Shown here piece after piece: positions 18,018 through 59,241 of a stretch of DNA of 64,000 bases; position 1 is the stretch's first letter, and the number at the start of each line of letters is the position of its first letter. The position numbers were made by a program, and so were the translations under genes. Source of the stretch: Patescibacteria group bacterium (GTDB lineage: Bacteria; Patescibacteriota; JAHJAL01); the NCBI GenBank assembly GCA_049322675.1, contig JBMORM010000025.1:128520-192519 (forward strand), given 5' to 3'. The notes under the pieces were generated by a model that was not told where the DNA came from, did not search any database, and saw nothing but the letters and a program-made list of their open reading frames with translations.

Positions 18018-21000
18018 ATGGTGAACAAAATGAAAAATTTATTTGCAAGTGTTCCTAAAAAGGTTAAATCCTTTTTGGTGGGAGTGGTGGCAATGGGTAT
18101 GTTATTGCCGACTATTTTACCTGGATTGGGAAATTCTGCAATGGCTGCGTCTCCTGTGTTTAATGATCAAGCCAATGATTATGCGACATTGAGAGTAGCC
18201 AATGCCAATAATCCCAGTGTTTTTAGTACCAGCGTGAATGCCAATCCTGGAGATCAGGTAATTTATAGTATTTATGTTCATAATACTGTTCTGGATACAA
18301 CCGCTATCAATACTGCTGTAAGAGCGGCTATTGATACTCAATATGCGACTGCGCATGGTGCAATGGCAACAGTTTGGGCAGAAAATGCCAGTCCGGTAGC
18401 TGGTAATGCCATTGTTTATACAGGTAATACCAGAACAAAAATGGAATATTTGCCCAATTCTGCTTATAGGTTTGTTACTGGTTCAAGCAATTGGGAGCCG
18501 ATGCCTGATGGGGTAATCGGGACTGGTTTGGTTTTGGGAAATGTTCAAGGTTGCTGGGAATATGTACAGCAGGTAATTTTTAGAGCAACTGTTGTTGCAG
18601 AACCTGTTCAACCTGCTGTAATTGGTATTAACAAACAAGTAGCTTTGGTTACCACAGGTGGTAATTCTTATGTTGAAAATGTTACTGCTAAAAATGGTGA
18701 CACTGTTTCTTTCAGTTTGAGTTTGGCAAATACCGGAGGTAGTGCTGCTACCAACGTAGTTGTTAAAGATGTATTGCCAAGTGGATTGGAATTTATCTCG
18801 GGATCTACCAAATTGAATGGTAATCCTGTGGCTGACACTTTGTTTACGACCGGTGTCAAAATTGATAGTTTAGCTGTTGGCGCAGTACCTTCTATTACTT
18901 TCCAAGCGAAAGTGACTGCAAGTACACCTGGTGTTTTGACAAATACGGGCACGGCGACGGCAGATAGTTTGGGACAGGTAAGTGATACTGCTACTGTGAC
19001 TATTCAACAAGTTTTGCAACCGGCTTTGGGTATTGCTAAAACTGTTTTAAATAATAGTTTAGTTGGCGGCACTTTTGCTGAAAATGCCAATGCTAAGACT
19101 GGTGAAACCGTGACTTTCAAGTTGATTGTAAGTAATACCGGTCAGTCTGAGGCCAAGAATGTGGTGGTGGCTGATCAGGTTCCGGCCGGATTGGCTTATG
19201 TCAGCGGTTCTACCAAGGTGGATGGAGTGGCGGACAATACCAATGCGATCACCGGGAATGGTTTAAATATTGCCAATATTGCCGCTGGAGCTTCCAAAAC
19301 GGTTACTTTTGAAGCGACTGTTTCGGCTACTTTGGCTCAGACTATTACCAATACTGGTACAGCCAGGGCGGAAAGTGTTAATCAGGTTGGTGATACGGCA
19401 ACTGTAACAGTTCAACAAGCTGGCCAACCCGTAATCACTATCGCCAAGACAGTGTCTTTGGGTGATGGATCCAGCAATTTTATTGAAAGTGTCAACGCGG
19501 TCAATAACGATATAGTACGTTTTCGTTTGATTGTAAGTAATAATAGCGGAGTTTCCGCTGACAATGTAAAAGTTTGGGATGGTTTGCCAAGTGGTTTAAC
19601 TTACATCGACAATTCAACTACTTTGGATGGAGCGGCACAATCTGGCAATGCGATTGTAAATAGTGGTATTACTTTGGGTACGATGACCAATGGTTCAACT
19701 CATACAGTTATTTTCAATGCTCGAGTCAATTCCAATAGTACTACTTTGACCAACTATGGCCGAGCCAATATCAATGGGACTAGCCAAGTGGAAGATCCAG
19801 CTACTGTAGTGGTGGGTGGAGCGAGTAATACTACCTTGTCTTTAGACAAGCAAGTTGCTCGAGGTGAAAATGGAACTTCTTATTATGAAAGTGTTTCGGC
19901 AGAAAATAGTGAATATGTTCGTTTCCGTATGGTGGTGCGAAATACCGGTAATGTTAGAGCCGACAATGTACAAATTGCCGATAATTTACCAAGTGGCTTG
20001 ACTTATGTGTCTAATTCTACTTACCTCGATGGGGTAAGACAAAATGATACTATAACTTCCAGTCGTTTGGATTTGAGTAATATGGATCCGGGTGTAAGTC
20101 GTACTGTTACTTTCAATGCTCGAGTCAATACTTCGTCCAATTCGACTATTACCAATGAAGCTACTGTTACATCGGATAATGCGACTTTGGTCAGGGATAC
20201 AGCGCAAGTTCAGGCCAACGGTTCTGATAGTGATCCATATTTGGAAATTACCAAAGAAGTTGATCAGGCAGTTGCAGATCCAGGTGACGAATTGAGATAT
20301 ACTATTCGAGTTCGAAACACCGGATCCGGTAATGCCACCAATGTTCGTATAGTTGATGATTTGCCGGAAAGAGTTCGCTATGTTTCGGGTTCATTGACTA
20401 TAACCGGAGATGGTGATGTCGAAGATGATGATTTGTTTGACGATGGTGTGATTATTGATAGACTGGAACCCGGAGATGATGTCTTGATTCGTTTTACGGC
20501 TCGTGTTGATAGTGATATTTCAGGAAATATGACTTTGGAAAATGTGGCTATTGCTCGTGATGATCAAGGTGATCGAGCCGAGGATGAGGTGGTGACAGAA
20601 ATTGAACAGGATGAGGCATATTTGGATATAGACAAGCAAGTTGACAAGTCAAGGGCCAATCCCGGTGATGAATTGCGCTATACAATAACAGTCCGCAATA
20701 CCGGATATGCCAATGCGACAAATGTCAGAGTATATGATGATTTGCCAAGTTATGTTGAAGTGGTGAGTGGCAGTTTGAGTGTTTCCGGTGATCATATTTC
20801 TTCCAGCGATTTGTTTGATAATTATGTTCGAGCCAGTTATCTGGAAAGAAATGATGAAATCAATATTACTTTTAGAGCCAAGATTAGAAGTGATATTACT
20901 ACTGATATGACTTTGGACAATGTGGCACGAGTGACTGCTGATGATGGATTGAGCGATAGGGATGTTGCTTCTACTTATATAGGCGCCAATGTTTTGCAAC

Positions 21001-21548
21001 CGAGTTTCAAGTTATCAAAGTTGGTTCGTAATGAGACCAAGGGTGAATCAACATTCAATCAATCAAATACTTCTGACCCTGGTAATGTTATGGAATACAA
21101 GATTACCTTGACCAATAATGGAAGTAGCCGTCTGACCGGCGTCAAGTTGAATGATATTTTGCCAAGTGGTTTGATGTATTTGGGTGGTACTGCTAAAGCC
21201 AGTATGAACAACTACGACATATCTGGTGATTGGAACAAGGTTGTTGAGCAGGGTGGTGTATTGTTGCCTGACATGAATGTCAATGATATTTTTACTTTGG
21301 TGTTCAAAGTGAAATCGAAAACTGATATTGCTGCCAATTCAACTTTAGTGAATACGGTCAATGTGGTGGCTGATCAAAATGTAAATGCTCAGGCGACGGC
21401 TAGTACATCATTTACACAAGTTGCTCAACCGCAGGAACTTCCCAAATCTGGTCCAGAAGTTGCTTTGGCTGGGTTTATCTTTTTGGCAGTTTCGTCAATA
21501 TTTTGGTTTGTCAGAGAAAAATGGCTTTTGACGACACAGATTATGTAA
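18018..21548 (+). CDS. Giant cell-surface protein with tandem DUF11-type repeat domains and a C-terminal LPxTG-like sortase signal (LPKSG + TM + REKW)
   Basis: N-terminal signal peptide. At least 8 repeats of ~110 aa with the DUF11 signature (TYTITVxNTG...ATNVxVxDxLPxGLxYVSGS). C-terminus ELPKSGPEVALAGFIFLAVSSIFWFVREKW. Confidence 0.65.
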   Translation: MVNKMKNLFASVPKKVKSFLVGVVAMGMLLPTILPGLGNSAMAASPVFNDQANDYATLRVANANNPSVFSTSVNANPGDQVIYSIYVHNTVLDTTAINTAVRAAIDTQYATAHGAMATVWAENASPVAGNAIVYTGNTRTKMEYLPNSAYRFVTGSSNWEPMPDGVIGTGLVLGNVQGCWEYVQQVIFRATVVAEPVQPAVIGINKQVALVTTGGNSYVENVTAKNGDTVSFSLSLANTGGSAATNVVVKDVLPSGLEFISGSTKLNGNPVADTLFTTGVKIDSLAVGAVPSITFQAKVTASTPGVLTNTGTATADSLGQVSDTATVTIQQVLQPALGIAKTVLNNSLVGGTFAENANAKTGETVTFKLIVSNTGQSEAKNVVVADQVPAGLAYVSGSTKVDGVADNTNAITGNGLNIANIAAGASKTVTFEATVSATLAQTITNTGTARAESVNQVGDTATVTVQQAGQPVITIAKTVSLGDGSSNFIESVNAVNNDIVRFRLIVSNNSGVSADNVKVWDGLPSGLTYIDNSTTLDGAAQSGNAIVNSGITLGTMTNGSTHTVIFNARVNSNSTTLTNYGRANINGTSQVEDPATVVVGGASNTTLSLDKQVARGENGTSYYESVSAENSEYVRFRMVVRNTGNVRADNVQIADNLPSGLTYVSNSTYLDGVRQNDTITSSRLDLSNMDPGVSRTVTFNARVNTSSNSTITNEATVTSDNATLVRDTAQVQANGSDSDPYLEITKEVDQAVADPGDELRYTIRVRNTGSGNATNVRIVDDLPERVRYVSGSLTITGDGDVEDDDLFDDGVIIDRLEPGDDVLIRFTARVDSDISGNMTLENVAIARDDQGDRAEDEVVTEIEQDEAYLDIDKQVDKSRANPGDELRYTITVRNTGYANATNVRVYDDLPSYVEVVSGSLSVSGDHISSSDLFDNYVRASYLERNDEINITFRAKIRSDITTDMTLDNVARVTADDGLSDRDVASTYIGANVLQPSFKLSKLVRNETKGESTFNQSNTSDPGNVMEYKITLTNNGSSRLTGVKLNDILPSGLMYLGGTAKASMNNYDISGDWNKVVEQGGVLLPDMNVNDIFTLVFKVKSKTDIAANSTLVNTVNVVADQNVNAQATASTSFTQVAQPQELPKSGPEVALAGFIFLAVSSIFWFVREKWLLTTQIM

Positions 21549-29152: not shown

Positions 29153-30356
29153 GACGCTAGATAAAGCGGATTTAAAAGATAAGATAGTCCTTGTGCGTGC
29201 AGATTATAATGTTCCAATGGAAGGATTAAAAATTGTTGATAATACAAGAATCGTTGAAAATATGCCCACTATCAGAGATTTGTTGAATAGGGGGGTCAAA
29301 AAAGTTGTAATAATATCTCATTTGGGACGTCCATTGGGGTCAGTAGTGGAAGAATTGCGTTTGAAGCCTATTGTTGCTGAATTGGAGTCCTGTTTGGGGG
29401 AAGAAGTGGATTATTTTTCAGATGATATAAATTTGGTTACTAGAGAAAAAATCGAGAGTTCTACTTTTAGAGTGATTTGTTTGGAAAATATCAGATTCGA
29501 TCAAAGAGAGGAAAATGGTGGCGAGGATTTAGCGAAAAAAATCTCGGAGTTGGCTGATATTTTTGTTTTGGACGCATTTTCTGTTGCTCATAGAGCTCAT
29601 GCAAGTGTGGTAGGGGTTGCAAAATTTTTGCCCACTTATGCTGGCTTGGCTCTTATAAAGGAATATGAGAGTATTAATATTTTTTTAAAAAATGTTAGAA
29701 AGCCATTTTGGGGGTTTTTTGGCGGGATTAAACTTGATGATAAAATGCCAGTGATTAAGTCATTGGTTGATAAATTAAATGGCATAGCTATTGGATCTAG
29801 TATTGCAGTAGCATTTTTGAAAAGATATGGTTTTGGTGTGGGTGATTCGATTGTTTCAAAAGATAGCGAAGTAGTTGTTGATCAATTTTTGGAGTTTGTA
29901 CTGGAAAAAAATATCCAAGTTGTTTATCCGAGAGATTTGATCATTGGTGATTCATTGAGTTTTAGGCGAGTAAAAGTTTTTGATATTGATTTTAATAAGA
30001 TTATTAAGAAAGAAGTTTCTCCTATTGTTGTTTGTGAGGATGGAGAGGGAATATATGATGTGGGAGAAAAAAGTGTAATAGAATATCAAAAAGTCATTGG
30101 TGCCGCAGGTTCAGTTTTTTGGAACGGGCCGTTTGGTTGGGTGGAAAAAGATGAATTCTCGCAGGGAACAATAGAATTAGCAAGATTTATGGCTAAGTCA
30201 CCCGCACAAGTGTTGATTGGTGGAGGTGATACAGTAGGTTTTGTTGCCGCAAAGGGCATGGTTAATGAATATGATTTTGTTTCAACTAGTGGTGGGGCGA
30301 TGTTAGAGTATATTGCCAATGGTACTTTACCTGGTTTAGACATTGTAAAAGAATAA
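29142..30356 (+). CDS. pgk: Phosphoglycerate kinase
   Basis: VLVRADYNVP N-terminal signature and the C-terminal block GGGDTVGFV...STSGGAMLEY. Confidence 0.85.
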   Translation: MAIRTLDKADLKDKIVLVRADYNVPMEGLKIVDNTRIVENMPTIRDLLNRGVKKVVIISHLGRPLGSVVEELRLKPIVAELESCLGEEVDYFSDDINLVTREKIESSTFRVICLENIRFDQREENGGEDLAKKISELADIFVLDAFSVAHRAHASVVGVAKFLPTYAGLALIKEYESINIFLKNVRKPFWGFFGGIKLDDKMPVIKSLVDKLNGIAIGSSIAVAFLKRYGFGVGDSIVSKDSEVVVDQFLEFVLEKNIQVVYPRDLIIGDSLSFRRVKVFDIDFNKIIKKEVSPIVVCEDGEGIYDVGEKSVIEYQKVIGAAGSVFWNGPFGWVEKDEFSQGTIELARFMAKSPAQVLIGGGDTVGFVAAKGMVNEYDFVSTSGGAMLEYIANGTLPGLDIVKE

Positions 30357-30376
30357 TTTTTTTGTTTTTTTAAAAA

Positions 30377-30404
30377 AATAACGGATATTATTCCGTTATT
30401 TTTG
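30377..30404 (+). terminator. Rho-independent terminator after pgk
   Basis: AATAACGGA-tattat-TCCGTTATT followed by TTTG. Confidence 0.65.
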
Positions 30405-30471
30405 TGTTGTGTCTAGCGTTGACTATATAAAATAATAGTGTTATTGTTAAGGTAATTATTTTAATATTGGG

Positions 30472-31836
30472 ATGATAAAAATTATGGTTGAAATTAAAAA
30501 GATACCTGAAAGTAGGATAGTGATGGAAATATTTGTTACATCTGAAGAGGTTCAAAAATATAAAAATGAAGCATTGGGTATTTTGGGCCAACAAGTAAAA
30601 TTGGAAGGTTTTCGAAAAGGTAAGGTTCCATTGAATATTTTGAAAGAGAATATTGACAGGGATAAGTGGCTGATTGAGACCGTTGATGTGGCAATCAACA
30701 ATAAATATTATGAAATCGTTGTTGCAAATAAGGATAAATATTTGGTGATTGGTAGTCCAAAAATTGATTTTAAATCAAAGATTGATTTTGATTCTATTGA
30801 CGCTGGTATAAGTTTTACGGCAGAAGTTGATGTGTATCCTGAAGTATCTTTGCCTGATTTGAGCAAGATCAAAGTTGAACAAAAAAAAGCGGTTGTCTTG
30901 GATGAAGATTTTGAGAAAAGTAAAGATTTGTTATTAAAAAAAAGATCTACTTTGACCGAGACTCAGGAAGGATATAATACGATCAAGGGAGATTGGATTG
31001 ATATTGATTATGAAGTAGAAATTGATGGAAAAAAAATATCTGATGCTGGGACAAAAAGTTTTCCTTTGATTATTGGTAATAAAATAATGACTGATGGTTT
31101 TGAGGATTATTTGCTAGAACATAGGGTGGGGGATGAGTTTGATTTTGTGTTAAAGGTTGATAGTGATTATAGAGACAAGAGGTTGGCTGGAAAAAATGTA
31201 AAATTTTATGTAAAGGTTAACGATATCAAAAAATTGGTAGTTCCTGAGTTCAATGATGATTTTGTAATTAGTTTGGCGATTGATGGTATTAATACAACTG
31301 ATGCTTTCAAAAAATACATGATGGAAAATTTGCTTTTGGAAAAGGAGAGGGAAGTAGAAGAGAGCGTCAAAAATGAAATTTTGGGAAAAATTGAAGCCGG
31401 AGTACAGATCGAATTGCCGGTTAGTTTGGTTGAGCAAGAATTGGACATGATGTGGCATGAATTTGAGCATAATTTGAGAGATAAAGGCATTGCGACGGAT
31501 GATTATCTAAAAAGAGAGAATGTTGATATGGAAAAGATAAAGGAGGGATGGAGAGAGCAGGCTACTAAGAGAGTTAGATTTGGGTTGATAATACGTGAAT
31601 TAATTAAAAGTTTGGATATAAAAGTTGACGAAAAAAACGTTATTGATTATTTGGAAAAGAGAATGAGTGTTATTAAACAAGATTTATTAAAACATGCGCC
31701 TGACAGTTTTGAGAAGATGGAACAAGAATATCGAAAAAAACTTTTTTCTGAAGATTATAAAAAACGCGCTGAGCAAGAATTGATTATTGATAAAATGTTT
31801 GATGTTTTAAAATCGATGACAGTTGTAAAAAAATAA
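30472..31836 (+). CDS. tig: Trigger factor
   Basis: N-terminal ribosome-binding domain with GFRKGKVP, and the overall FKBP plus C-terminal arm architecture. The start may be ATG at 30484. Confidence 0.8.
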
Positions 31837-31855
31837 TTATTTAAATAAATATATT

Positions 31856-32449
31856 ATGAAATCAAGTACAATTATAAATCAGTTGGTGCCGATGGTAATT
31901 GAAAAGTCGGCATATGGTGAGAGAGCTTATGATATTTTTTCTAGGTTGTTGAAAGAAAGAATTATTTTTCTTGGTTCTCCAATTGATGATGGTATTGCTA
32001 ATTTGATTGTTGCTCAATTGCTTTTTTTGCAAAGCGAGGATGAAAAAAAAGAGATTAAGTTTTATATTAATTCACCAGGTGGGTCAGTGACTGCAGGGAT
32101 GGCTATTTATGATACTATGCAGCATATTAAATCTGATGTTGCTACAATATGTATAGGTCAAGCTGCTTCGATGGCAGCGGTATTGTTGTCGGCTGGTGAA
32201 AAAGGAAAACGTTTCGCCTTACCTAATTCCAGAATTATGATTCATCAAATTATGGGTGGGGTTGAAGGACAAGCTTCAGATGTAGAAATTCAGGCAAATG
32301 AGATGTTGAGGTTGAAAAAGAAATTAAACGAAATATTGGTTGTTCATACCAGACAAAGCTATGAAAAAATAGATAAAGATACAGATCGTGACTTTTTTAT
32401 GTCACCCGATGAGGCGAAAAAATATGGTTTAATAGACAAGGTTTTATAG
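31856..32449 (+). CDS. clpP: ATP-dependent Clp protease proteolytic subunit
   Basis: [12 protein letters not shown]...[19 protein letters not shown]...GQAASMAA...IMIHQ carries the Ser-His-Asp triad context. Confidence 0.9.
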
Positions 32450-32509
32450 TAATTTTTACTTGACATATATTTTTTATGGTGTTATTATTTTTTTGTTTAA
32501 GGGATTACA

Positions 32510-33643
32510 GTGAATAATATGAATAATCAAGTGAATAACTCTAATCAGCCTATTGGTCAGAGTGAGGGTAAGTTGTTGGACAGCATATATGCTTCTTGGC
32601 AGCAGGAGGAGTTGGATAATATTAATGTTACCAATATGATTGCCAAGGCTTTTGGTGGTTTGAAACGCAAACAGAGGCATGTTTTAAAGAGGAGATATGG
32701 AATTGGTGGTTTGGAAAAAAAGACTTTGCAAGAGATAGGTGATAGTTTTGGTGTTACTAGAGAAAGAATAAGACAGATAGAGAGATCAGCGTTAAAAAAA
32801 TTGAACAAAGAAGTAAATATTAAATATTTTCGTCCGGTTACGGCAGCAGTTGCTTTTGAATTGGAAAAATCTGGTGGAATTATATCAGAGCGAACATTAA
32901 TAAGACGCATTTTAGGTAATAATTATTCAGAGGAAAATAATAGTGGTATGAAATTGATTTTGGAGGTTTTTCCTGATTTTTATTATGCTAAAGAGTGTGA
33001 TCATAAAAATGAAGCCTGGCATCTAAGAGAATGTGATCTAGAAAGAGTCGTAAAGGTGATAAAAAGTTCGATTGAGTATTTGGAAAATAGAGGGGAAATA
33101 GTGTCTATTGATGAATTAAAAAGTGATATTGCTAGTAAACATGAATTGACTGAAGATCATTTGGTGTCGCTTATGGATTTGTCGAAGATGATTATGCAAA
33201 CATCTGATGGTGGTTTTGGTCTTAAATCTTGGAAGTTTATAAATCCAAAGAATATTAGGGACAAGATATTTTTTGTTTTTCATAGAACAAAGAAACCTAT
33301 GCATTTTATGGAAATTACCGATTTAATAGTGAAAGAGGATTTTTTGCATAAGAAAAAAATAACTCACCAGGCGGTTCACAATGAGTTGATTGCTGATGAT
33401 AGATATGTTTTGATAGGCAAAGGAATATACGCTTTGAAAGAGTGGGGTTATCAACCTGGTACAGTAGTGGATGTTATCAAACAGATAATAAAGGAGGCAA
33501 AAAGACCTCTTTCAAAGGCTGAAATTATCGAAGAGGTCTTAAAACGTAGAATAGTGAAAAAAAATACTATTGTCATTAATTTGCATAATAAAAAATATTT
33601 TGACAGAACTACTGATGATAACTTTGTTTTGAAAAATCAATAA
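32510..33643 (+). CDS. Sigma-70 region-4 HTH domain fused to a HARE-HTH (RNAP delta-like) domain; putative transcription/DNA-binding factor
   Basis: N-terminal block LKRRYGIGGLEKKTLQEIGDSFGVTRERIRQIERSALKKL (sigma region 4.2). C-terminal KPMHFMEITDLI...RYVLIGKGIYALKEW matches the HARE-HTH signature (GKGxYxLKEW). GTG start at 32510 or ATG at 32519. Confidence 0.5.
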   Translation: MNNMNNQVNNSNQPIGQSEGKLLDSIYASWQQEELDNINVTNMIAKAFGGLKRKQRHVLKRRYGIGGLEKKTLQEIGDSFGVTRERIRQIERSALKKLNKEVNIKYFRPVTAAVAFELEKSGGIISERTLIRRILGNNYSEENNSGMKLILEVFPDFYYAKECDHKNEAWHLRECDLERVVKVIKSSIEYLENRGEIVSIDELKSDIASKHELTEDHLVSLMDLSKMIMQTSDGGFGLKSWKFINPKNIRDKIFFVFHRTKKPMHFMEITDLIVKEDFLHKKKITHQAVHNELIADDRYVLIGKGIYALKEWGYQPGTVVDVIKQIIKEAKRPLSKAEIIEEVLKRRIVKKNTIVINLHNKKYFDRTTDDNFVLKNQ

Positions 33644-33676
33644 AAATAAATAAAAAATAAATATATACTGTATTTA

Positions 33677-36379
33677 ATGGGAAATTTTTATTACATAGGT
33701 TTGTTTTTGTTATTTTTGGTGGTATGGGTAGGAATAGTGTACCTTGCTTTTTTGGCGTGGCAATATCGCAGATATAGGACATGGTTAAAAAACCAAAAAT
33801 ACCAGTGTTTGTTAATAAAAGTTCCTAAAAAAAATGAAAAAAATGCGTTATCGGCGGAGCAAATGTATGCGAGTTTGCATGGAATAATGCGCAATCGCTG
33901 GGTAATGTTTTGGGAAGGAAGCATGCAGGAACATATAAGTTTTGAGATAGTTTCTTCAAATAAGTATATAAAATTTTATGGATTTGTTCCGGATTATTTG
34001 GTTGAATTTGTTGAAGGTCAGATTTATGCTCAGTATCCCACTGTTTTGATTGAGAAGGTAGATGATTATATTTCAGAGTATAAGTATCAAAATAAAGACT
34101 TTTCTTCATGTGAGTTGGTATTGGATAAAGATGAGGTTTATCCGTTGAGAACATTTGAAACATTTGATGTTGATCCTTTGGCAGGTATTACTGCAGTTTT
34201 AAGTAAATTGGGTGATACGAAAAATCAGATATGGTTGCAGTTTTTGATTCGACCGGTAAATAATCATTGGCAGCATAGAAGTCAGAAGATAATAAACAAA
34301 ATTAGAGGCGGTGTTGACACATTATCTTTTTTTGGTTTTGTTGGAAGCTTTTTAAGTTTGATTGTTAATCATATCTTAAATCCAGGGAGCACGAATGAGA
34401 AAGCTTCAGAAAACAAGAAGGTGTTATCTGGTCCTGAAGAGGAAGCAATTGCAGAAATAAATAAAAAATCAGTAAAATTAGGATTTGAGACAAAAATTAG
34501 AATTATTGCTTTTGGAGATAGCTCTATTGACGCTAAAAGTAAATTGCAGTCAATTATTGGGACGTTTAAACAATTTAGTCTTACCAATCTTAATAGTTTG
34601 AGTGCCAATCGTATTAGCGTGGGGAATTTTAGAGATTTGGAAGTGTATAAAAATAGAAGTTTTGCAGGAAAAGGTTTTGTGTTGAATACTGCCGAATTAG
34701 CGAGTTTATTTCATTTGCCAAGTATTTCTGTTGAGACGCCAACTATCGTTTGGTCAAATAATAAAGTAGCTGAGCCGCCAAGCAATTTGCCGACAGTAAA
34801 TAATTCAAATTTAGCTGATCTAACTGTATTTGCAAAAACTGATTTTAGAGAATTGGAGAATGTTTTTGGAATAAAAACTGAAGATAGGTCGAAACATGTT
34901 TATATCGTGGGAAAGACAGGTATGGGTAAAACTTCTTTGTTGCAAAACATGGTTATTGACGATATGAGAAAGGGCAGGGGAATAGCTGTGGTAGATCCGC
35001 ATGGTGACTTTGTTGATACGGTATTGAATTATGTTCCTTCAAACAGAATAAATGATGTTGTTTTATTTGATCCTGGAGATAGAGATAATCCGATTGCCTT
35101 TAATTTACTTGAGAATGTTGCTGATGATTATAAACCTATTATTGCTTCAGGTTTAATTGCGATTTTTAAAAAACTTTGGCATGATTCCTGGGGACCAAGA
35201 TTGGAACATATATTGCGCTATACTTTTTTGGCTTTATTAGATTATGAGGGAAGTACATTTTTGTGTGTTCCTCGGTTGCTTTCAGATGAAGTTTTTAGAA
35301 ATGAGGTTATTAATCATATTAAGGATCCGGTAGTAAAAGATTTTTGGGAAGTCGAGTTCAATGGTTATACTGATAAACTAAGGCAGGATGCGATATCTCC
35401 TATTCAAAATAAAATTGGTCAATTTTTGGCAAGCTCGACGATTAGAAATATTGTTGGGCAGCCAAAAACGGCTATCAATATCAGGGAGGTGATGGATAGC
35501 AAGAAGATCTTGTTGGTTAAAGTTGCAAAGGGTGTAGTTGGAGAGGACAATGCTGCATTGTTGGGTGCAATGATAATTACTAAAATCCAATTGGCTGCTA
35601 TGAGTAGGGCGGATATATCTGAAGAAAAGCGTATTCCTTTCAATCTGTATGTTGATGAATTTCAAAATTTTGCTACTGAAAGTTTTGCGTCTATTTTATC
35701 GGAAGCTAGAAAATATAAATTGAATTTGCATGTTGCGAATCAATATATTGAACAGATGGAAGATGTAGTTCGTGGGGCTGTATTTGGTAATGTTGGTACT
35801 TTGATTACTTTTAGAATCGGAGCTACAGATGCGGATTATTTATCTAAAGAGTTTGCACCTACTTTTTTGGCAGAAGATTTGACCAACTTGGAGAAATTTC
35901 ACATTTATCTGCGTATGACAATTGATGGGATTTCTAGTCCGGCTTTTTCCGCGGTTACTTTAAGTTTGCCAGTAGAAAAAACAAATAATGTTGATAAAGT
36001 ACTTTTTTCTTCTAGGGAAAAGTATGGCACTAAAAGAGATTTTGTTGAGACAAAAATTAAGGAGTGGTCTGAAGTATTGGATTCTAAAAAAAAGAAGGTG
36101 AACAACAATAAGTGCGGAAAAAAAGGAAATATGGTGATGAAGAAGACTGATGAGTCGGTTGTTGAAATGGATCAAGAAAAAAGAGAACAATTGTTAACGA
36201 AGTTGAAGGCATTTCAAGAAGAGAGAACCAGTAATAAAGATGACAATATTAAGATTGATTTGGACAAAGAAGCTGTTAAAAGAAAGTTGGTTGAGTTTAA
36301 TAATACAAGAATGAAAAAGTCAGATTTTAGCGAGAAAATAATTGAGGATAATGATGAGGAAATTATTATCGAACAATAG
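33677..36379 (+). CDS. Membrane-anchored P-loop ATPase of the FtsK/HerA/TraG-VirD4 (type IV coupling protein, TraG-D_C type) superfamily
   Basis: N-terminal TM segment. Walker A VGKTGMGKTS; Walker B LYVDEFQNF; then the EARKYKLNLHVANQY...Q arginine-finger block typical of TraG/TraD/HerA. Lys/Glu-rich C-terminal tail. Confidence 0.5.
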   Translation: MGNFYYIGLFLLFLVVWVGIVYLAFLAWQYRRYRTWLKNQKYQCLLIKVPKKNEKNALSAEQMYASLHGIMRNRWVMFWEGSMQEHISFEIVSSNKYIKFYGFVPDYLVEFVEGQIYAQYPTVLIEKVDDYISEYKYQNKDFSSCELVLDKDEVYPLRTFETFDVDPLAGITAVLSKLGDTKNQIWLQFLIRPVNNHWQHRSQKIINKIRGGVDTLSFFGFVGSFLSLIVNHILNPGSTNEKASENKKVLSGPEEEAIAEINKKSVKLGFETKIRIIAFGDSSIDAKSKLQSIIGTFKQFSLTNLNSLSANRISVGNFRDLEVYKNRSFAGKGFVLNTAELASLFHLPSISVETPTIVWSNNKVAEPPSNLPTVNNSNLADLTVFAKTDFRELENVFGIKTEDRSKHVYIVGKTGMGKTSLLQNMVIDDMRKGRGIAVVDPHGDFVDTVLNYVPSNRINDVVLFDPGDRDNPIAFNLLENVADDYKPIIASGLIAIFKKLWHDSWGPRLEHILRYTFLALLDYEGSTFLCVPRLLSDEVFRNEVINHIKDPVVKDFWEVEFNGYTDKLRQDAISPIQNKIGQFLASSTIRNIVGQPKTAINIREVMDSKKILLVKVAKGVVGEDNAALLGAMIITKIQLAAMSRADISEEKRIPFNLYVDEFQNFATESFASILSEARKYKLNLHVANQYIEQMEDVVRGAVFGNVGTLITFRIGATDADYLSKEFAPTFLAEDLTNLEKFHIYLRMTIDGISSPAFSAVTLSLPVEKTNNVDKVLFSSREKYGTKRDFVETKIKEWSEVLDSKKKKVNNNKCGKKGNMVMKKTDESVVEMDQEKREQLLTKLKAFQEERTSNKDDNIKIDLDKEAVKRKLVEFNNTRMKKSDFSEKIIEDNDEEIIIEQ

Positions 36380-36430
36380 ATTTTTTTGATTTTTAGTTTG
36401 GATTTTTCAAGAGTGGGGTCAAATGTTATA

Positions 36431-36462
36431 GTCGTACAATGTATCTTGTGCGACTTTTATTG
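36431..36462 (+). terminator. Hairpin plus T-run after the ATPase gene
   Basis: GTCGTACAA-tgtatc-TTGTGCGAC followed by TTTTATTG. Confidence 0.5.
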
Positions 36463-36695
36463 TTGGTTTGGTCGACTTTGATCATATTTAATTTGTGGCA
36501 ATAATGTTGTAATGGTATTGATTTTTTAGATATTTTTTAGATTTAATCTTTCGTAGGTGAATATTCATATTTGTAAAATTAGCTATTTGGTCGCACAATA
36601 CTAAATAATTTTGTTTGTTAATAGAGAATATTATTGTCACTTATAAATAGTGGGTTTTCGCTCTTTTTCGGTGATTATTGAAATTGGGTCCTTCC

Positions 36696-37781
36696 CTATT
36701 GTTCGTCAATGATCTCTTGGCGTATTTCTTTGACTAAATTTAGGTAAAAATTCAAATTATGAATTGTGTTGAGATACATACTTAGTGGTTCGTTGTTGAT
36801 GAAAATATGACGGAGGTAACTGGGTGTATAGTTTTTGCATGTACTACAAGAACAGTTTTTGTCTAAAATGCTAAAATCTTTTTTGTATTTTTTTTGTTTA
36901 ATTCTAATTGTGCCTTGTGACGAGAAAAGATAACCGTGGCGTGCATTTCTAGTGGGCATTACGCAATCAAACATATCGATACCGTTTTTTATTGCTTCTT
37001 TGATATTTTCGGGTGTTCCAACTCCCATTAGATATCTGGGTTTGTTCTCGGGTAGTAATGGGGTTGTATATTCTAAAACTTTGTACATTTCGTTTGACGT
37101 TTCGCCTACAGCCAATCCACCAATAGCGTATCCATCAAATCCAATTTTTAGCAGTTCATAAACTGATTTTTTGCGTAAGTCGGGAAATAATGCACCTTGG
37201 ACTATGCCAAATAAAGCTTGTTTTGAATTTTCGATTGTATTGTGTTGTTTTTTGCATCGTTTTGCCCATTTTAACGTAAGTATTAATGAGTTGTTGGCGT
37301 ATTCATATGAACAATTGCTTGGTGGACATTCGTCTAAGACCATCATGATATCTGAGCCAAGGTTTTGTTGAATTTTTATGGATTTTTCCGGACTAAGGAA
37401 ATGTTTTGATCCGTCGATGTGAGAAGAAAAATACGCTCCTTTTGGGGTAATTTTTCGAGTTTTGGCCAGACTGAATATTTGGTATCCTCCACTATCGGTG
37501 AGAATTGGTTTTGGCCAATTCATGTATTTATGTAAACTTCCAGACGCCTTGATTATATCGTCTCCTGGTCGGAGATGGAGGTGATAAGTATTGGCAAGTA
37601 AAATATTGGCTTGTAATTCGTTGTTGAGTGTTTTTGTATCTAAGCAACGAATGGCGCCGGCAGTGGCAACTGGCATAAAACAAGGAGTTTGAATTTTGCC
37701 ATGAGGTGTTGTAATTTCCCCTACTCTAGCATTTGTTTTTTTTGATTTTTTTATGACTTTGAATTTGAATAATGATGACAT
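36696..37781 (-). CDS. tgt: Queuine tRNA-ribosyltransferase
   Basis: LTDSGGYQ catalytic motif; Zn site CSCSTC...H; TPHG...TPCFMPV N-terminal block. Confidence 0.9.
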   Translation of the reverse strand: MSSLFKFKVIKKSKKTNARVGEITTPHGKIQTPCFMPVATAGAIRCLDTKTLNNELQANILLANTYHLHLRPGDDIIKASGSLHKYMNWPKPILTDSGGYQIFSLAKTRKITPKGAYFSSHIDGSKHFLSPEKSIKIQQNLGSDIMMVLDECPPSNCSYEYANNSLILTLKWAKRCKKQHNTIENSKQALFGIVQGALFPDLRKKSVYELLKIGFDGYAIGGLAVGETSNEMYKVLEYTTPLLPENKPRYLMGVGTPENIKEAIKNGIDMFDCVMPTRNARHGYLFSSQGTIRIKQKKYKKDFSILDKNCSCSTCKNYTPSYLRHIFINNEPLSMYLNTIHNLNFYLNLVKEIRQEIIDEQ

Positions 37782-37815: not shown

Positions 37816-38895
37816 ATGAATTTTGATTATATGAAATTTAATTCTAGCCAGGATGATTTTGGCGCAAGTCTCGAGGTAGTAAAAAATAAGTTGGCGAAAT
37901 CTGAAATTGTAGCCTCAATTGATCAGTTGAGTTGTGTTGTTGTAGAAAAGTGGTGGAATAATTTGGATAAAATTGTGGTTCCAAAAAATGTAACCGAGTC
38001 GTCAGTTGTCCGAGCGATAGAAGCAGTAAATAAGATATTGATTCCAGCTGGTTTTGAAAAAGTTGGGGTATCTGTTCGGGGCGGTTTAATGACGGATATA
38101 GAAATGGCATCGAATTTGTTGGCAAAAAATCGAATATTATTTAGTAGTGGTGACTTGCCGATTCGAAATATTGTTGGAGGAAATAGTTTTAAATATTGGA
38201 TTGAGGATGTGACGGTTGATGAGAAAAAACCGGTTTCTTTAGCGCAATTGGTAGGTTACCGTTTGCATAATGTAATTAATACGAAACAGTTGGTAGAGAA
38301 ATATCAACAATTGCGTGCAAAAGTGACTAATATCTATGGGTTGAAAGTAATTCGTTGGGATATATATGGTATTTGTGATGATGCGGCAAAAATTATTCCC
38401 TTGTTGGATGAAAAGACAGCATTGGCGATAGAATATTATCCAAGGTTTGGCCGACCGGAGATTTTTTTTGAAAAAATTGATGAATTGAGAAAAAAATATC
38501 CTGGTAAACAGATTGGAATATCATTTGACCCTGTATATTATCAGATGGCGTCAAGTTTGTATAAAGGTTGTATGACTCCGGAAAACTATTTTAGGAAGAT
38601 AATTTCTGAGAGACCTGATCAATTGATGATGTTGGAGGTTAATCAGATTGCTTTGAATCAAAATAAGCCTCATTCGGCAATTACTGATGGAAAAGTAAAT
38701 CATTATGAGATGTTTAATCAGTTGGGGAAAGCATATCGTGGTGGCAGATTGTATTATTTACCTCATTTTGCTTATGAGCCTTCACCAAAATATTATGATC
38801 AAGTCATGGTTGAAGGAAAAGAGTATATGGTTAAATTGAATGAAAGTTTTATGGGAAATGACGAGTATATGTCTGGATCAAAGAGGGATTTGTAG
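37816..38895 (+). CDS. Hypothetical protein, 359 aa
   Basis: ORF only; no motifs recognised. Confidence 0.35.
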   Translation: MNFDYMKFNSSQDDFGASLEVVKNKLAKSEIVASIDQLSCVVVEKWWNNLDKIVVPKNVTESSVVRAIEAVNKILIPAGFEKVGVSVRGGLMTDIEMASNLLAKNRILFSSGDLPIRNIVGGNSFKYWIEDVTVDEKKPVSLAQLVGYRLHNVINTKQLVEKYQQLRAKVTNIYGLKVIRWDIYGICDDAAKIIPLLDEKTALAIEYYPRFGRPEIFFEKIDELRKKYPGKQIGISFDPVYYQMASSLYKGCMTPENYFRKIISERPDQLMMLEVNQIALNQNKPHSAITDGKVNHYEMFNQLGKAYRGGRLYYLPHFAYEPSPKYYDQVMVEGKEYMVKLNESFMGNDEYMSGSKRDL

Positions 38896-49306: not shown

Positions 49307-50065
49307 TTACCAATTTAACTTGTCTTTGACGAAGTGACTGTAGCGACGGGAAACTGGTATGGTAATTTGATTAGTTAGCTCAAGTTGGTAGTTTGATTTT
49401 TGCCAGAGATACATGCGTGAAATATAGTCCAGATTGACTATAAATGATTTGTGGGTACGTAAAAAATTATCTGGTAGGTTTTTTTCTAAATCTTGGAGAT
49501 TGTAGTTGACTCTTTTACTGTCTTTTTGATGGTTATTGGCGAACACTAGTGGTCCTTCGGCGGCAAAATGAGTTAGATCTTTGAGTTGGAATATGTACCG
49601 ATCATTTGGGTTGGTACCGAAGGCAGTTATTTTTCCGCCAATAAATAAGTTGGTCGAATCGATTTTGGCTGGTAGTAAAAGTTGGGTTTTCTTTTTTTCG
49701 ATTTGATTTTTGATTTTGTTGATAGTAACTTGAAGGCGTTTGGGATCTGTGGGTTTTAATAGGTAGTCTATTGCGTTTAACTCGAAAGCTTTGACGGCAT
49801 ATTCGTCGTAGGCTGTAACGAAGACGATAATTATTGTGGGGAAATCTCGAATAATTTTTTGTGCAAGATCAATGCCGGAAATAAAGGGCATGTTGATGTC
49901 CAAAAAGACTAGAGAGATACTTTTTTCTTTAATTAGATTTAAGGCCTTTTCCGGATTATTCATGGTAAAGATTTTTTGCGTTGGGAAATATTCACTTAGT
50001 TGATATTTTAATTCATTGGTGGCTGGTTGTTCGTCATCAATGATTAATGTATTGATGTTTAACAT
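49307..50065 (-). CDS. LytTR-family response regulator
   Basis: REC domain (LIIDDE...VFLDINMP) plus a C-terminal LytTR DNA-binding domain. Confidence 0.75.
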   Translation of the reverse strand: MLNINTLIIDDEQPATNELKYQLSEYFPTQKIFTMNNPEKALNLIKEKSISLVFLDINMPFISGIDLAQKIIRDFPTIIIVFVTAYDEYAVKAFELNAIDYLLKPTDPKRLQVTINKIKNQIEKKKTQLLLPAKIDSTNLFIGGKITAFGTNPNDRYIFQLKDLTHFAAEGPLVFANNHQKDSKRVNYNLQDLEKNLPDNFLRTHKSFIVNLDYISRMYLWQKSNYQLELTNQITIPVSRRYSHFVKDKLNW

Positions 50066-50076
50066 GTTTGTATGTT

Positions 50077-57767: not shown

Positions 57768-58225
57768 TTTTCAATTTTCTCGATTTGTTTTAAGCGACGA
57801 CTATTTTTAATTTTTCCGGAGAATGGAGTAGTTAAAAATTTATTCAAGATAAGCTTGGCTTCTTTTTTGGTGACAAAATCGGCCGGGATAACAAGAATAT
57901 GTGGATTGTCATCGTTTTTTACTTCTTTGGCGATTTCTTTGTTCCAACATACGGCGGCACGAAGACATTTGATTTTATTGGCTACGATATTCATACCAGC
58001 CCCGGAGCCACAAATCAAGACTCCAACATTGTTTTGACGATTTTTTTTAACCGCTAAACATACTTTTTGACCGAATATTGGGTAATTATCTTTGGCCTCG
58101 TAATGGTTGTTTCCATGGTCAATGATATTATAACCCTTTTTTTGCAGGTATTTTTTTAGTTCAAATTTCAAACAATAACCTCGATGATCGGCGCCGATAT
58201 GGATGGTGGGCTTTTTAATTGGCAT
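57749..58225 (-). CDS. rpiB: Ribose-5-phosphate isomerase B
   Basis: IGADHRG...; GVLICGSGAGMNIVANK; catalytic Cys context. Confidence 0.8.
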   Translation of the reverse strand: MPIKKPTIHIGADHRGYCLKFELKKYLQKKGYNIIDHGNNHYEAKDNYPIFGQKVCLAVKKNRQNNVGVLICGSGAGMNIVANKIKCLRAAVCWNKEIAKEVKNDDNPHILVIPADFVTKKEAKLILNKFLTTPFSGKIKNSRRLKQIEKIEKCLKKA

Positions 58226-58853: not shown

Positions 58854-59241
58854 TTTTTATTTTTTTATTTATTTTATTTATTTATCTTAGTATTATATCA
58901 TTTATTTTATAAAATATCAATAAGTAAAACTTAAGTTATTTTTCTAGGTTCTCTTTTAGTTTATTTATTCTTGCTTCAAGAGATATTTTAACTCCGGTCT
59001 CTTTTTCGATTTGTTTTTGGATATTTTCGAAGAGTATTTTTTTTAACTCAAAAATAATTTTTTTTTCACTAGGCGGCCAAGTTGGTTTTTCTGGATTCAT
59101 AGTAGAAATATAATGATTATGAAATCGACCAGATTGTATCAGGGTTTATTTTTATAATCAATAATTTTTGCACAAGAATATAATCATATTGTTAATTATA
59201 ATATGATTATATTATTGACTAAAATAGTGTAATATTATTTA

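What the first reader, a model, noticed from the sequence alone, without database searches (positions are those of the whole stretch)
32510..36379. Sigma region-4 + HARE-HTH fusion protein adjacent to a membrane-anchored TraG/VirD4/HerA-like ATPase: a possible DNA-translocation or novel regulatory module
Downstream of tig-clpP, where clpX normally sits, lies a 377-aa protein that combines a sigma-70 region 4.2 HTH (no regions 2 or 3) with a C-terminal HARE-HTH (GKGIYALKEW, as in the RNAP delta subunit). It is followed by a 900-aa single-TM P-loop ATPase with TraG-D_C-type motifs (GKTGMGKTS; VDEFQNF; RKYKLNLHVANQ) and a K/E-rich tail. The domain combination of the first protein is one I do not recognise as a described family. 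The pair could form a DNA uptake or export module, or an RNAP-associated factor with an ATPase partner.
Basis: partly seen in the sequence, partly recalled or inferred. Interest (0 to 1): 0.6.

Follow-up and report, generated by a model that had tools for sequence, protein, structure and literature searches.

The report
Conserved sigma-fragment protein plus membrane ATPase
Across the ultra-small Patescibacteria, a two-gene unit pairs a DNA-binding protein built from the promoter-reading end of a sigma factor (its counterpart is essential in one cultured species) with a membrane-anchored motor of the kind that feeds DNA into conjugation machines, and I found no published account of what the pair does.

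Summary
Gene A (32510-33643, 377 aa) is not a sigma factor. It has an intact primary-sigma-type region 4 followed by four winged helices, the last two HARE-HTH-like, and no regions 2 or 3. The residues that read the -35 element in sigma70 are unchanged in 110-111 of 111 family members. Gene B (33677-36379, 900 aa) has one TM helix, a ~300-aa cytoplasmic N-domain (PF26449), and a VirD4/VirB4-class ATPase with invariant Walker motifs. The two genes form their own promoter-to-terminator unit in a housekeeping neighbourhood.

Both families are spread across Patescibacteria. In 57 of 76 related loci, gene B or its N-domain as a separate gene starts within 500 bp downstream, although the flanking genes differ. 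Published Tn-seq supplementary data for Southlakia epibionticum score the gene A counterpart as essential and the adjacent gene B counterpart as dispensable. Neither gene is discussed in that paper. Gene B homologues in Bacillus plasmids and phages sit beside replication-relaxation proteins, in the coupling-protein position.

Best reading: gene A is a DNA-recognition adaptor for a domesticated coupling-protein motor and also has an ATPase-independent essential role. The mechanism is inferred, not shown. I rate it a new variant of a known kind, interest about 0.6.

The parts
32460..32488 (+). Sigma-70-type promoter-like site, TTGACA-17 nt-TATTAT with a TG extension, in the 60-bp clpP-gene A spacer
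   Evidence: 11 of 12 matches, the best site in 30300-36800. Sequence read. This is a consensus match only.
32510..33643 (+). Gene A: sigma4 plus four winged helices (377 aa; alternative ATG start at 32519)
32627..32803 (+). Sigma region 4 (residues 40-98). The recognition helix VTRERIRQIE is at residues 82-91.
   Evidence: Pfam PF04545 E 5e-16. Foldseek to SigA region 4, rmsd 1.2-2.1 A, 33-53% identity. Profile against PDB sequences gives group-1 sigma region 4 at 1e-19 to 1e-20. R62, T72, L73, G77, R84, E85, R86, R88 and Q89 are kept in 110-111 of 111 sequences.
32810..33223 (+). Winged helices 1 and 2 (residues 101-171 and 177-238); acidic and poorly conserved, likely a spacer or scaffold
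   Evidence: AF2 secondary structure. Tandem winged-helix hits to SelB, UFL1/DDRGK1 and Dcc1. Charge and conservation.
33254..33436 (+). Winged helix 3 = HARE-HTH (residues 249-309); basic and the most conserved domain
   Evidence: NCBIfam RNAP-delta model at 253-312, E 2.5e-10. Pfam HARE-HTH. H290, N291, E292, L293, I294, G303, G305, Y307, L309 and W312 are invariant.
33464..33631 (+). Winged helix 4, a second HARE-HTH-like domain (residues 319-374); basic
   Evidence: Pfam HARE-HTH best stretch at 317-351. AF2. Net charge +5.
33677..36379 (+). Gene B: membrane-anchored VirD4/VirB4-class ATPase (900 aa)
33686..33760 (+). Single N-terminal transmembrane helix (hydrophobic residues 4-28) followed by basic residues. 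This predicts that the rest of the protein is cytoplasmic.
   Evidence: AF2 helix 2-39. Sequence. Topology is inferred from the positive-inside rule.
33800..34711 (+). N-domain (residues 42-345; PF26449 in the precomputed annotations of homologues). In many lineages it is a separate gene next to gene A.
   Evidence: Foldseek aligns the full length to TrwK/VirB4.
34814..36016 (+). P-loop ATPase domain (residues 380-780) with an all-alpha insertion (about 483-600). Walker A is at 34910-34933 and Walker B at 35642-35659.
   Evidence: Pfam TrwB_AAD_bind, DUF87 and TraG-D_C. TrwB TM-score 0.63-0.65. G412, G415, G417, K418, D660 and E661 are invariant in 89 sequences.
36035..36376 (+). K/E-rich helical tail (residues 787-900); low model confidence, and homologues vary widely in overall length
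36430..36465 (+). Terminator-like hairpin (10-bp stem) plus T-run, 50 bp after the gene B stop codon

Best explanation
This is a two-gene chromosomal unit found across Patescibacteria.

Gene A is a DNA-binding protein, not a sigma factor. It carries a complete primary-sigma-type region 4 whose -35-reading residues are kept nearly unchanged. This is joined through two variable acidic winged helices to a conserved, basic pair of HARE-HTH winged helices. Gene B is a catalytically intact hexameric-type motor of the VirD4/VirB4 (conjugative coupling-protein) class. One N-terminal TM helix holds it on the inner face of the membrane, and it carries a large cytoplasmic N-domain.

Proposed mechanism. 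Gene A binds DNA at TTGACA-like sites through sigma4, with the basic winged helices adding affinity. It docks on the N-domain of gene B, or possibly on its tail. It would thus be the DNA-recognition or loading subunit of a membrane-tethered DNA motor. That is the role played in monoderm conjugative elements by the relaxase and accessory proteins encoded next to the coupling protein. The module looks like a domesticated, relaxase-less descendant of such a coupling-protein unit. Gene A must also have a second role that does not need the motor, because its counterpart is essential while the motor's is not. The simplest such role is general occupation of -35 elements or promoters, or of the RNAP beta-flap.

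Shown: domain anatomy, conservation, operon structure, synteny, the essentiality data, and the homology of gene B to plasmid and phage coupling-protein-position genes.

Inferred: DNA sequence preference, physical contact between the two proteins, DNA as the motor's substrate, and the nature of the essential role.
For: Anatomy:
- Region 4 followed by four winged helices, with no sigma2 or sigma3.
- The recognition helix is identical to that of RpoD/SigA region 4 in solved structures.
- The positions aligned to sigma70 R562, T572, L573, R584, E585, R586, R588 and Q589 are kept in 110-111 of 111 members, which are otherwise 35-40% identical.
- Sigma4, WH3 and WH4 are basic and conserved. WH1 and WH2 are acidic and variable.
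- Gene B has invariant Walker A and B motifs, a TrwB-like ATPase fold and a VirB4-like two-domain layout.

Operon: a 33-bp gap between the genes, a near-consensus promoter before gene A, and a hairpin terminator after gene B.

Synteny:
- 57 of 76 loci have the N-domain gene within 500 bp downstream on the same strand, and 4 more have it further downstream.
- The flanks differ between lineages: tig-clpP here, secDF/pgk in others, topA in Saccharimonadia.
- Where gene B is split, the N-domain gene stays next to gene A.

Literature:
- SEML1_0294 is scored essential and SEML1_0293 non-essential. Both belong to core, Patescibacteria-enriched families.
- 5,713 VirD4-like homologues were found in 2,918 Patescibacteria genomes, and only 148 lie near virB4. 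The authors allow that they were 'exapted for other functions'.

Homologues of gene B:
- In a B. subtilis plasmid, the homologue heads a Tcp-like conjugation cluster beside a replication-relaxation protein.
- The same pairing occurs in phages CP-51 and G.
Against: - No direct evidence that the two proteins touch. I could not run a complex prediction.
- The opposite essentiality of the two genes shows that gene A's main role does not depend on gene B.
- About 20% of loci lack the adjacency. At least 12 of the 15 exceptions share a topA...ftsQ/murG context typical of Saccharimonadia.
- There is no relaxase or nickase, so it is unclear what DNA substrate a coupling-protein-type motor would handle.
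- One TM helix per subunit is not an obvious channel.
- Sigma region 4 also binds the RNAP beta-flap tip, so the conserved surface may serve RNAP binding rather than, or as well as, free DNA binding.
- The loci were chosen by similarity to gene A and are phylogenetically related, so the counts are not independent events.
Confidence: 0.42

Rival explanations
1. The two proteins do separate jobs and are only co-expressed. Gene A is an essential general transcription factor or RNAP-associated subunit specific to Patescibacteria. Its sigma4 binds the beta-flap tip and/or -35 DNA, and its HARE-HTH part acts like RNAP delta. Gene B is simply the coupling protein of the distant type IV secretion system.
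For: - Opposite essentiality of the two genes.
- Region 4 is of primary-sigma type along its whole length.
- WH3 matches the RNAP-delta model.
- Coupling proteins are often encoded far from virB4, and pilus-related T4SS functions do not need them (the second point is from my own knowledge).
- About 20% of loci lack the adjacency.
Against: - Adjacency is kept across classes of the phylum while the flanking genes change, which usually signals a functional link.
- When gene B is split, it is the non-catalytic N-domain gene that stays next to gene A.
- In B. subtilis, delta's N-domain binds the beta' shelf and jaw, far from the flap, and works through an acidic tail. This protein lacks such a tail.
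- The HARE pair here is basic, not acidic.
Confidence: 0.27
2. The pair is a regulatory couple like a sigma and its anti-sigma. The membrane-anchored N-domain of gene B sequesters the sigma4-bearing protein at the membrane, and the ATPase domain controls capture or release.
For: - The gene order (sigma-like gene, then a single-pass membrane protein gene in the same operon) resembles sigma/anti-sigma operons.
- The N-domain gene alone suffices as the neighbour in some lineages.
- Loss of a negative regulator would be tolerated, which fits the non-essential call with a slow decline in read counts: 5817, then 2940, then 1372.
Against: - The N-domain is a ~300-aa alpha/beta domain that aligns with the VirB4 N-terminal region, not with a known anti-sigma domain.
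- Homologues of gene B in plasmids and phages have no sigma-like partner and sit in DNA-processing clusters.
- No sigma2 is present to be sequestered.
Confidence: 0.12
3. Gene A is an ordinary gene-specific regulator, for example an autoregulator of the gene A-gene B operon. Its adjacency to gene B is the usual pairing of a regulator with its target.
For: - It is an HTH protein at the head of the operon, and a consensus TTGACA sits in its own promoter.
Against: - It is essential although its presumed target is dispensable.
- The -35-reading residues are frozen across the whole phylum, which points to a general rather than a local DNA target.
- It persists in loci where gene B is absent.
Confidence: 0.07
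4. The pair is part of a mobile element, prophage or anti-phage defence system.
For: - Gene B matches phrog_5156 at 9e-87 and has homologues in Bacillus phages and plasmids.
- Sigma4 matches the MzaA defence-associated sigma model.
Against: - The 64-kb window holds only housekeeping genes. Among the scanned ORFs there is no integrase, relaxase or T4SS gene.
- A pattern scan for gene A's HARE region found one confirmed relative in 2.9 million IMG/VR contigs.
- The PADLOC hits cover only region 4 or the P-loop.
- Both are core families of the phylum.
Confidence: 0.02

Closest known systems
Type IV coupling proteins with their DNA-processing partners in monoderm conjugative elements (e.g. the DUF87/T4CP-like gene next to a replication-relaxation gene in Bacillus plasmids; from my own knowledge also TraD-TraM, TrwB-TrwA and PcfC-PcfF)
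   Same: - Gene B is homologous over about 700 residues (about 25% identity, E 1e-45) to the gene that heads a Tcp-like conjugation cluster in a 24.7-kb B. subtilis plasmid.
- It has the TrwB-like ATPase fold with an all-alpha insertion, a membrane anchor and a TraG-D_C match.
- A DNA-binding protein is encoded right beside it.
   Different: - No relaxase or T4SS genes lie nearby (the window).
- The partner is a sigma4-winged-helix protein unrelated to Replic_Relax (hhalign probability 0.4%).
- The location is chromosomal, the genes are core and present phylum-wide, and there is one TM helix instead of the usual two.
- NCBIfam TraD models score far below their cut-offs (47 against 366 bits).
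Orphan VirD4-like T4CP homologues of Patescibacteria (Quinonero-Coronel et al. 2025, PMC12102498)
   Same: Gene B fits this description: a chromosomal VirD4-like homologue that is not near virB4, and whose counterpart is non-essential in S. epibionticum.
   Different: That paper reports no partner gene. The words 'sigma' and 'HTH' do not occur in it. The link to gene A and the separable N-domain are additions from this analysis.
Sigma-70 family region 4 (sigma4) of primary sigma factors
   Same: - Same fold (rmsd 1.2-2.1 A), 33-53% identity, and an identical recognition helix VTRERIRQIE.
- The -35-contact positions are kept.
   Different: - Regions 1.2, 2 and 3 are absent, so it cannot melt promoters or bind core RNAP the way a sigma factor does.
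- A complete RpoD exists separately, at least in S. epibionticum.
RNA polymerase delta subunit (RpoE) of Firmicutes
   Same: WH3 is a HARE-HTH that matches the delta model at E 2.5e-10.
   Different: - The score is just under the family cut-off (40.4 against 42 bits).
- There is no acidic disordered C-terminal region, which is what displaces nucleic acids in delta.
- The HARE domains here are basic.
- The protein is twice as long and begins with sigma4.
Tandem winged-helix arrays (SelB C-terminal domain, UFL1/DDRGK1, Dcc1)
   Same: The chain of four winged helices superposes locally on these arrays (Foldseek E 1e-4 to 2e-2).
   Different: Only 8-14% identity, different functions, and no evidence of common descent. 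This is a resemblance in fold only.

Membership tests
Sigma-70 family sigma factor | Region 2 (sigma2: core binding, -10 recognition, melting) | tested here: not met
   No Sigma70_r2 hit at E<=1. The AF2 model has no helical sigma2 domain. Foldseek hits to sigma factors cover region 4 only.
Sigma-70 family sigma factor | Region 4 (sigma4: -35 recognition, beta-flap binding) | tested here: met
   PF04545 E 5e-16. Structural and profile matches to SigA/RpoD region 4.
Sigma-70 family sigma factor | Score above the NCBIfam family cut-offs | tested here: not met
   The best sigma models score 57-66 bits against cut-offs of 354-800. The sigma70-ECF superfamily model scores 42.4 against 42.9.
RNAP delta subunit (RpoE) | N-terminal HARE-HTH domain | tested here: inconclusive
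   TIGR04567 matches residues 253-312 at 40.4 bits, under its 42-bit cut-off. The domain is internal, not N-terminal.
RNAP delta subunit (RpoE) | Long acidic disordered C-terminal region | tested here: not met
   The protein ends three residues after WH4, whose net charge is +5. The feature is as described in PMC7749165.
Type IV coupling protein (VirD4/TraD/TrwB) | P-loop NTPase of the FtsK-HerA superfamily with intact Walker A and B motifs | tested here: met
   G412, G415, G417, K418 and D660, E661 are invariant in 89 sequences. TrwB TM-score 0.63-0.65.
Type IV coupling protein (VirD4/TraD/TrwB) | All-alpha domain inserted in the NTPase domain | tested here: met
   PF10412 TrwB_AAD_bind at 402-697, 30.7 bits against a cut-off of 20.5. 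Helical block at about 483-600 in the model.
Type IV coupling protein (VirD4/TraD/TrwB) | N-terminal membrane anchor | tested here: met
   One hydrophobic helix at residues 4-28. Typical coupling proteins have two (my own knowledge).
Type IV coupling protein (VirD4/TraD/TrwB) | Genomic or functional coupling to a relaxase and a mating-pair-formation system | tested here: not met
   No relaxase or T4SS gene among the scanned ORFs of the 64-kb window. Only 148 of 5,713 Patescibacteria homologues lie near virB4.
Type IV coupling protein (VirD4/TraD/TrwB) | Score above the curated TraD/T4CP model cut-offs | tested here: not met
   TIGR03743 scores 47 bits against 366. TIGR03754 scores 35 against 648.
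FtsK/SpoIIIE DNA translocase | FtsK_SpoIIIE motor domain, gamma (KOPS-reading) domain and a 4-TM N-terminus | tested here: not met
   PF01580 E 0.1, 12.5 bits against a cut-off of 24. A canonical FtsK with a gamma domain exists separately in S. epibionticum (SEML1_0096).
Anti-phage defence systems (PADLOC set, incl. MZA) | Full-length match to a defence protein model, with partner genes present | tested here: not met
   The MzaA match covers region 4 only (37-100 against 594-657 of 683). The mad8 and HerA matches cover the P-loop domain only.

The most novel reading that the evidence does not exclude
Gene A is an essential, Patescibacteria-specific general transcription component: a sigma4-bearing protein that occupies -35 elements or the RNAP beta-flap. 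It would physically tether promoter DNA or RNA polymerase to a membrane-anchored coupling-protein motor. Transcription or promoter DNA would then be directly coupled to nucleic-acid translocation at the membrane, possibly towards the essential type IV secretion system and the host cell.
Probability: 0.12. Interest if true: 0.85.

Novelty: new variant of a known kind. Interest (0 to 1): 0.6.

Why it matters
Patescibacteria are a large share of bacterial diversity, and most of their phylum-specific core genes have no known function. This work connects two such core families.

- One is essential in the only genome-wide fitness screen available, where it was auto-annotated as 'RpoS' and not discussed.
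- The other is the 'orphan' coupling-protein homologue, whose role the 2025 T4SS survey explicitly left open.

The synteny gives a concrete, testable lead in organisms that can now be manipulated genetically (Southlakia, Nanosynbacter).

- If the pair is a DNA-recognition subunit plus motor, it would be a relaxase-independent use of conjugation hardware in a housekeeping role.
- If gene A is an RNAP or promoter factor, it would be a new kind of essential bacterial transcription component built from a sigma fragment.

Tried and rejected
1. FtsK substitute with gene A as a KOPS-reader analogue: rejected. S. epibionticum has a canonical FtsK with a gamma domain, and the Pfam FtsK match is insignificant.
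2. Gene A as a diverged replication-relaxation protein: rejected. hhalign probability 0.4%.
3. Defence system: rejected.
4. Phage or mobile element: rejected. Gene A has one confirmed relative in IMG/VR, its phage hits are ordinary sigma region 4 only, and the window is all housekeeping genes.
5. Strand bias of TTGACA in the window as a hint of an orienting motif: 29 against 15 occurrences. This is uninformative given the extreme G/C asymmetry.
6. A conserved replacement partner in loci that lack gene B: none found. The immediately downstream genes do not cluster.
7. The first GTDB scan was swamped by ordinary sigma factors, because one search pattern was the region 4 helix. Only 15 of the 80 loci were true relatives. 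I repeated it on metagenomes with a HARE-only alignment.
9. The HARE-HTH founding paper (Aravind and Iyer 2012) is not held. I recall that it mentions bacterial proteins combining HARE-HTH with sigma-like features, but this is unverified.
10. I used both structure-prediction jobs on the single proteins, so I could not predict the complex.

Full report
OBSERVATION. Gene A (32510-33643, +, 377 aa from a GTG; NCBI's identical protein starts at the ATG at 32519) has Pfam Sigma70_r4 at residues 47-98 (E 5e-16) and HARE-HTH (E 3e-7). It has no region 2 or 3 match at E<=1. NCBIfam's RNAP-delta model matches residues 253-312 at E 2.5e-10. Gene B (33677-36379, +, 900 aa) matches DUF87/HerA, TrwB_AAD_bind and TraG-D_C above their cut-offs. 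It matches TraD-type coupling-protein models only weakly. tig and clpP lie directly upstream. None of the window's ORFs of 180 aa or more that I scanned is ClpX, and none is an integrase, relaxase or T4SS gene. The neighbourhood is glycolysis, SecDF, tRNA modification, cell wall and DNA repair.

GENE A ANATOMY. An AlphaFold2 model built on 111 homologues is confident (pLDDT 93.5, pTM 0.81). It shows:
- a helix at residues 17-36;
- sigma region 4 at 40-98;
- four winged-helix domains at 101-171, 177-238, 249-309 (the HARE-HTH) and 319-374 (a second HARE-like domain).

Foldseek against the PDB matches the N-terminal part to SigA/RpoD region 4 (rmsd 1.2-2.1 A, 33-53% identity). It matches the rest to tandem winged-helix arrays (SelB C-terminus, UFL1/DDRGK1, Dcc1). 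Nothing resembles sigma2 or sigma3. A family profile finds group-1 sigma region 4 as its best solved relatives (E 1e-19 to 1e-20), and the recognition helix VTRERIRQIE is identical.

Window residue n aligns with E. coli sigma70 residue 500+n. R62, T72, L73, G77, R84, E85, R86, R88 and Q89 are kept in 110-111 of 111 members, which are otherwise 35-40% identical. From established work on sigma70 and Thermus aquaticus SigA region 4 bound to -35 DNA (1KU7; my own knowledge), R584, E585, R586, R588 and Q589 are the -35-contacting residues. Sigma4, WH3 and WH4 are basic (family mean net charge +5, +3.4 and +5) and are the conserved parts. WH1 and WH2 are acidic and variable. So gene A is not a sigma factor with hidden regions. 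It is a sigma4-led, multi-winged-helix protein whose conserved surfaces look like nucleic-acid-binding surfaces.

GENE B ANATOMY. The AF2 model (pLDDT 87) shows:
- one long N-terminal helix with hydrophobic residues 4-28, followed by basic residues, so the rest should be cytoplasmic;
- an alpha/beta N-domain at 42-345;
- a conserved extended linker;
- a P-loop domain at about 380-780 with a helical insertion at about 483-600;
- a low-confidence K/E-rich helical tail.

Walker A (G412 to K418) and Walker B (D660, E661) are invariant in 89 homologues, and the N-domain also holds dozens of invariant positions. Foldseek aligns the full length to TrwK/VirB4 (E about 4e-15, about 900 columns) and the ATPase domain to TrwB (TM-score 0.63-0.65), HerA and DotL. 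By sequence, DotL and TrwB are the only solved relatives. Precomputed annotations of homologues call the N-domain PF26449, a model missing from the local Pfam copy.

OPERON. The 60-bp clpP-gene A spacer holds the best sigma-70-type promoter match in the region: TTGACA-17 nt-TATTAT with a TG extension, 11 of 12 matches. The genes are 33 bp apart. A 10-bp-stem hairpin with a T-run follows gene B.

DISTRIBUTION AND SYNTENY.
- The 120 best gene A homologues share the same length class. Nearly all carry both PF04545 and PF05066, and every source name that identifies a taxon points to Patescibacteria (Komeili-, Kerfeld-, Berkel-, Buchanan-, Parcubacteria).
- The winged-helix part alone finds 1,267 cluster representatives at E<=0.001 (473 at E<=1e-30). 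The 150 best are almost all 320-400 aa.
- Gene B has more than 5,000 homologues at about 50% identity across the phylum.
- I fetched 15 GTDB species loci (Saccharimonadia including Nanosynbacter TM7-087, Doudna-, Kaiser-, Peregrini- and Parcubacteria) and 80 metagenome loci with a HARE-only query. I scored them with HMMs of the N-domain and ATPase domain.
- Of 76 loci with at least 1 kb downstream, 57 have the N-domain gene starting within 500 bp on the same strand, 4 have it further downstream, and 15 have none.
- The ATPase domain follows within 3 kb in 40 of 51 loci with enough sequence.
- The flanks differ between lineages: tig-clpP and tgt here, secD-secF upstream and pgk downstream in many, topA upstream in Saccharimonadia.
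- In many lineages gene B is split into a TM+N-domain gene and an ATPase gene. In three GTDB loci only the N-domain gene follows. The tightest link is therefore between gene A and the N-domain.
- At least 12 of the 15 exceptions share a topA...ftsQ/murG context. They look like loss or relocation of gene B from a topA-gene A-gene B-murG arrangement that is still seen in L126.
- A pattern scan for gene A's HARE region found one confirmed relative in 2.9 million IMG/VR contigs.
- Caveat: the loci were chosen by similarity to gene A and are related, so the counts are not independent events.

EXPERIMENTAL DATA IN THE LITERATURE. The data come from Wang et al. 2023 (Cell; PMC10633639), Tables S1 and S2.
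- SEML1_0294 was annotated 'RpoS' by PROKKA. It is 349 aa, with PF04545 at 27-72 and PF05066 at 225-283, and its structure-based domain parse reads 'tri-helical, winged, winged, winged'.
- Both are flagged as core and Patescibacteria-enriched families.
- SEML1_0294 is called essential at all three time points: 24 insertions in the input DNA, then 1, 1 and 2 recovered.
- SEML1_0293 is called non-essential: 82 insertions in the input, then 87, 120 and 110 recovered. Its normalised reads fall from 5817 to 2940 to 1372, while its neighbours hold steady.
- A polar effect cannot explain the essentiality of 0294, because the downstream gene is dispensable.
- The same genome has a complete RpoD (regions 1.2, 2, 3 and 4), a canonical FtsK with a gamma domain, and a second gene B paralogue.
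- Neither gene is mentioned in the main text.
- I equate SEML1_0294/0293 with the window pair from annotation, architecture and synteny, not from an alignment. The Nanosynbacter locus L007, from the same class, shows the same arrangement at 35% and 46% identity.

Quinonero-Coronel et al. [quoted passage not shown] They say exaptation 'cannot be ruled out'. They do not mention a sigma-like or HTH partner. I found no paper on the gene A family.

RELATIVES OF GENE B ELSEWHERE. Gene B matches phrog_5156 over its full length (9e-87). It matches Bacillus phage G gp156 at 25% identity over 744 residues including the N-domain. It also matches proteins of SPO1-like phages and of plasmids of Bacillus, Streptomyces, haloarchaea and Sulfolobus.
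- In a 24.7-kb B. subtilis plasmid the homologue is followed by a replication-relaxation family protein, a conjugal transfer protein, TcpE and a large ATP-binding protein. This is the coupling-protein position of a Tcp-like conjugation cluster.
- In phage CP-51 it sits beside a Replic_Relax protein and an actin-like partition protein. In phage G it sits beside a TraG/VirB4-like P-loop protein, with a Replic_Relax protein close by.
- This ties the family to DNA processing and transfer.
- Gene A is not related to Replic_Relax.

MECHANISM. Shown: the anatomy, the frozen -35-reading residues, the operon, the synteny, the essentiality pattern, and the coupling-protein ancestry of gene B.

Inferred, in order of decreasing confidence:
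(a) Gene A binds DNA through sigma4 in the sigma manner and so prefers TTGACA-like hexamers, with WH3 and WH4 adding contacts.
(b) Gene A and gene B act together, most likely by gene A docking on the N-domain.
(c) Gene B is a membrane-tethered nucleic-acid motor and gene A is its recognition or loading subunit, taking the place that relaxase and accessory proteins hold beside coupling proteins.
(d) Gene A also has an essential, motor-independent role, most simply as a general promoter or RNAP-flap factor.

The main rival keeps (a) and (d) and drops (b) and (c). In that view gene A is an essential transcription component and gene B is just the distant T4SS's coupling protein. Coupling proteins are not needed for pilus biogenesis (my own knowledge), so a dispensable coupling protein beside an essential T4SS is not a contradiction. 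A sigma/anti-sigma-like sequestration pair is a further possibility. A delta-like mode is unlikely. In B. subtilis, delta binds the beta' shelf and jaw and acts through an acidic tail (PMC7749165). This protein lacks such a tail, and its HARE domains are basic.

NOVELTY AND SCORE. All the parts are known domain types, and both families are already in databases. One is recorded as essential in a supplementary table. The other is discussed as an orphan coupling-protein homologue. As far as I could find, these points are new:
- the correct architecture of gene A (sigma4 plus four winged helices, with sigma-grade conservation of the -35-reading residues);
- its operon link to the coupling-protein homologue across classes of the phylum, and specifically to that protein's separable N-domain;
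- the contrast in essentiality within the pair.

I class it as a new variant of a known kind (a coupling-protein motor with a DNA-binding partner) and give it interest 0.6. A specialist would find an essential sigma-fragment protein surprising, and the finding makes the open question of the orphan coupling protein testable in a tractable organism. The function, however, remains inferred.

Noticed in passing
window 1-64000: Extreme strand composition: C 13.4% against G 22.7%. GC skew is +0.03 to +0.49 in every 2-kb bin (at or above +0.13 in all but one), although gene orientation flips from + to - near 36.5 kb. AT skew, by contrast, follows gene orientation.
   Followed up: no
L162 5905-8382 (Bacillus phage G gp156); L163 5782-8517 (phage CP-51 gp91); L164 5842-8502 (B. 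subtilis plasmid): Full-length homologues of gene B (N-domain plus ATPase, about 25% identity) occur in large Bacillus phages and small Bacillus plasmids. They lie next to, or in phage G close to, a Replic_Relax (PF13814) protein. In the phages they are annotated 'hypothetical' or 'MsbA-like'. In CP-51 an actin-like partition protein is also nearby.
   Followed up: partly
L002, L009, L011, L014 and about 25 metagenome loci; L012, L013, L015: Gene B is split into a TM+N-domain gene and a separate ATPase gene in many Patescibacteria lineages. In three GTDB loci only the N-domain gene follows gene A.
   Followed up: partly
L001, L010, L101, L102, L104, L109, L111, L118, L122, L147, L148, L152: A Saccharimonadales-like group has gene A in a dprA-topA-gene A-[variable small genes]-ftsQ/murG arrangement and lacks gene B next to gene A. 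The small genes that replace it are not related to each other.
   Followed up: partly
window 8675-11074, 15608-17326, 37816-38895, 11377-13192: Long ORFs (799, 572, 359, 282 and 324 aa) with no Pfam hit. The first three also have no NCBIfam hit. The 359-aa ORF lies just past tgt, which follows gene B on the opposite strand.
   Followed up: no
window 58001-60024: A low-GC stretch (27% against about 36% elsewhere) holds two ORFs (212 and 260 aa) with no family match.
   Followed up: no
window 18018-21548: A 1176-aa protein with seven DUF11 repeats plus alpha-2-macroglobulin-like and Ig-like domain matches. It is probably a large surface protein.
   Followed up: no
window 49307-51288: A LytTR-type response regulator and a 5TM-LytS-type histidine kinase form a complete two-component system in this small genome.
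   Followed up: no
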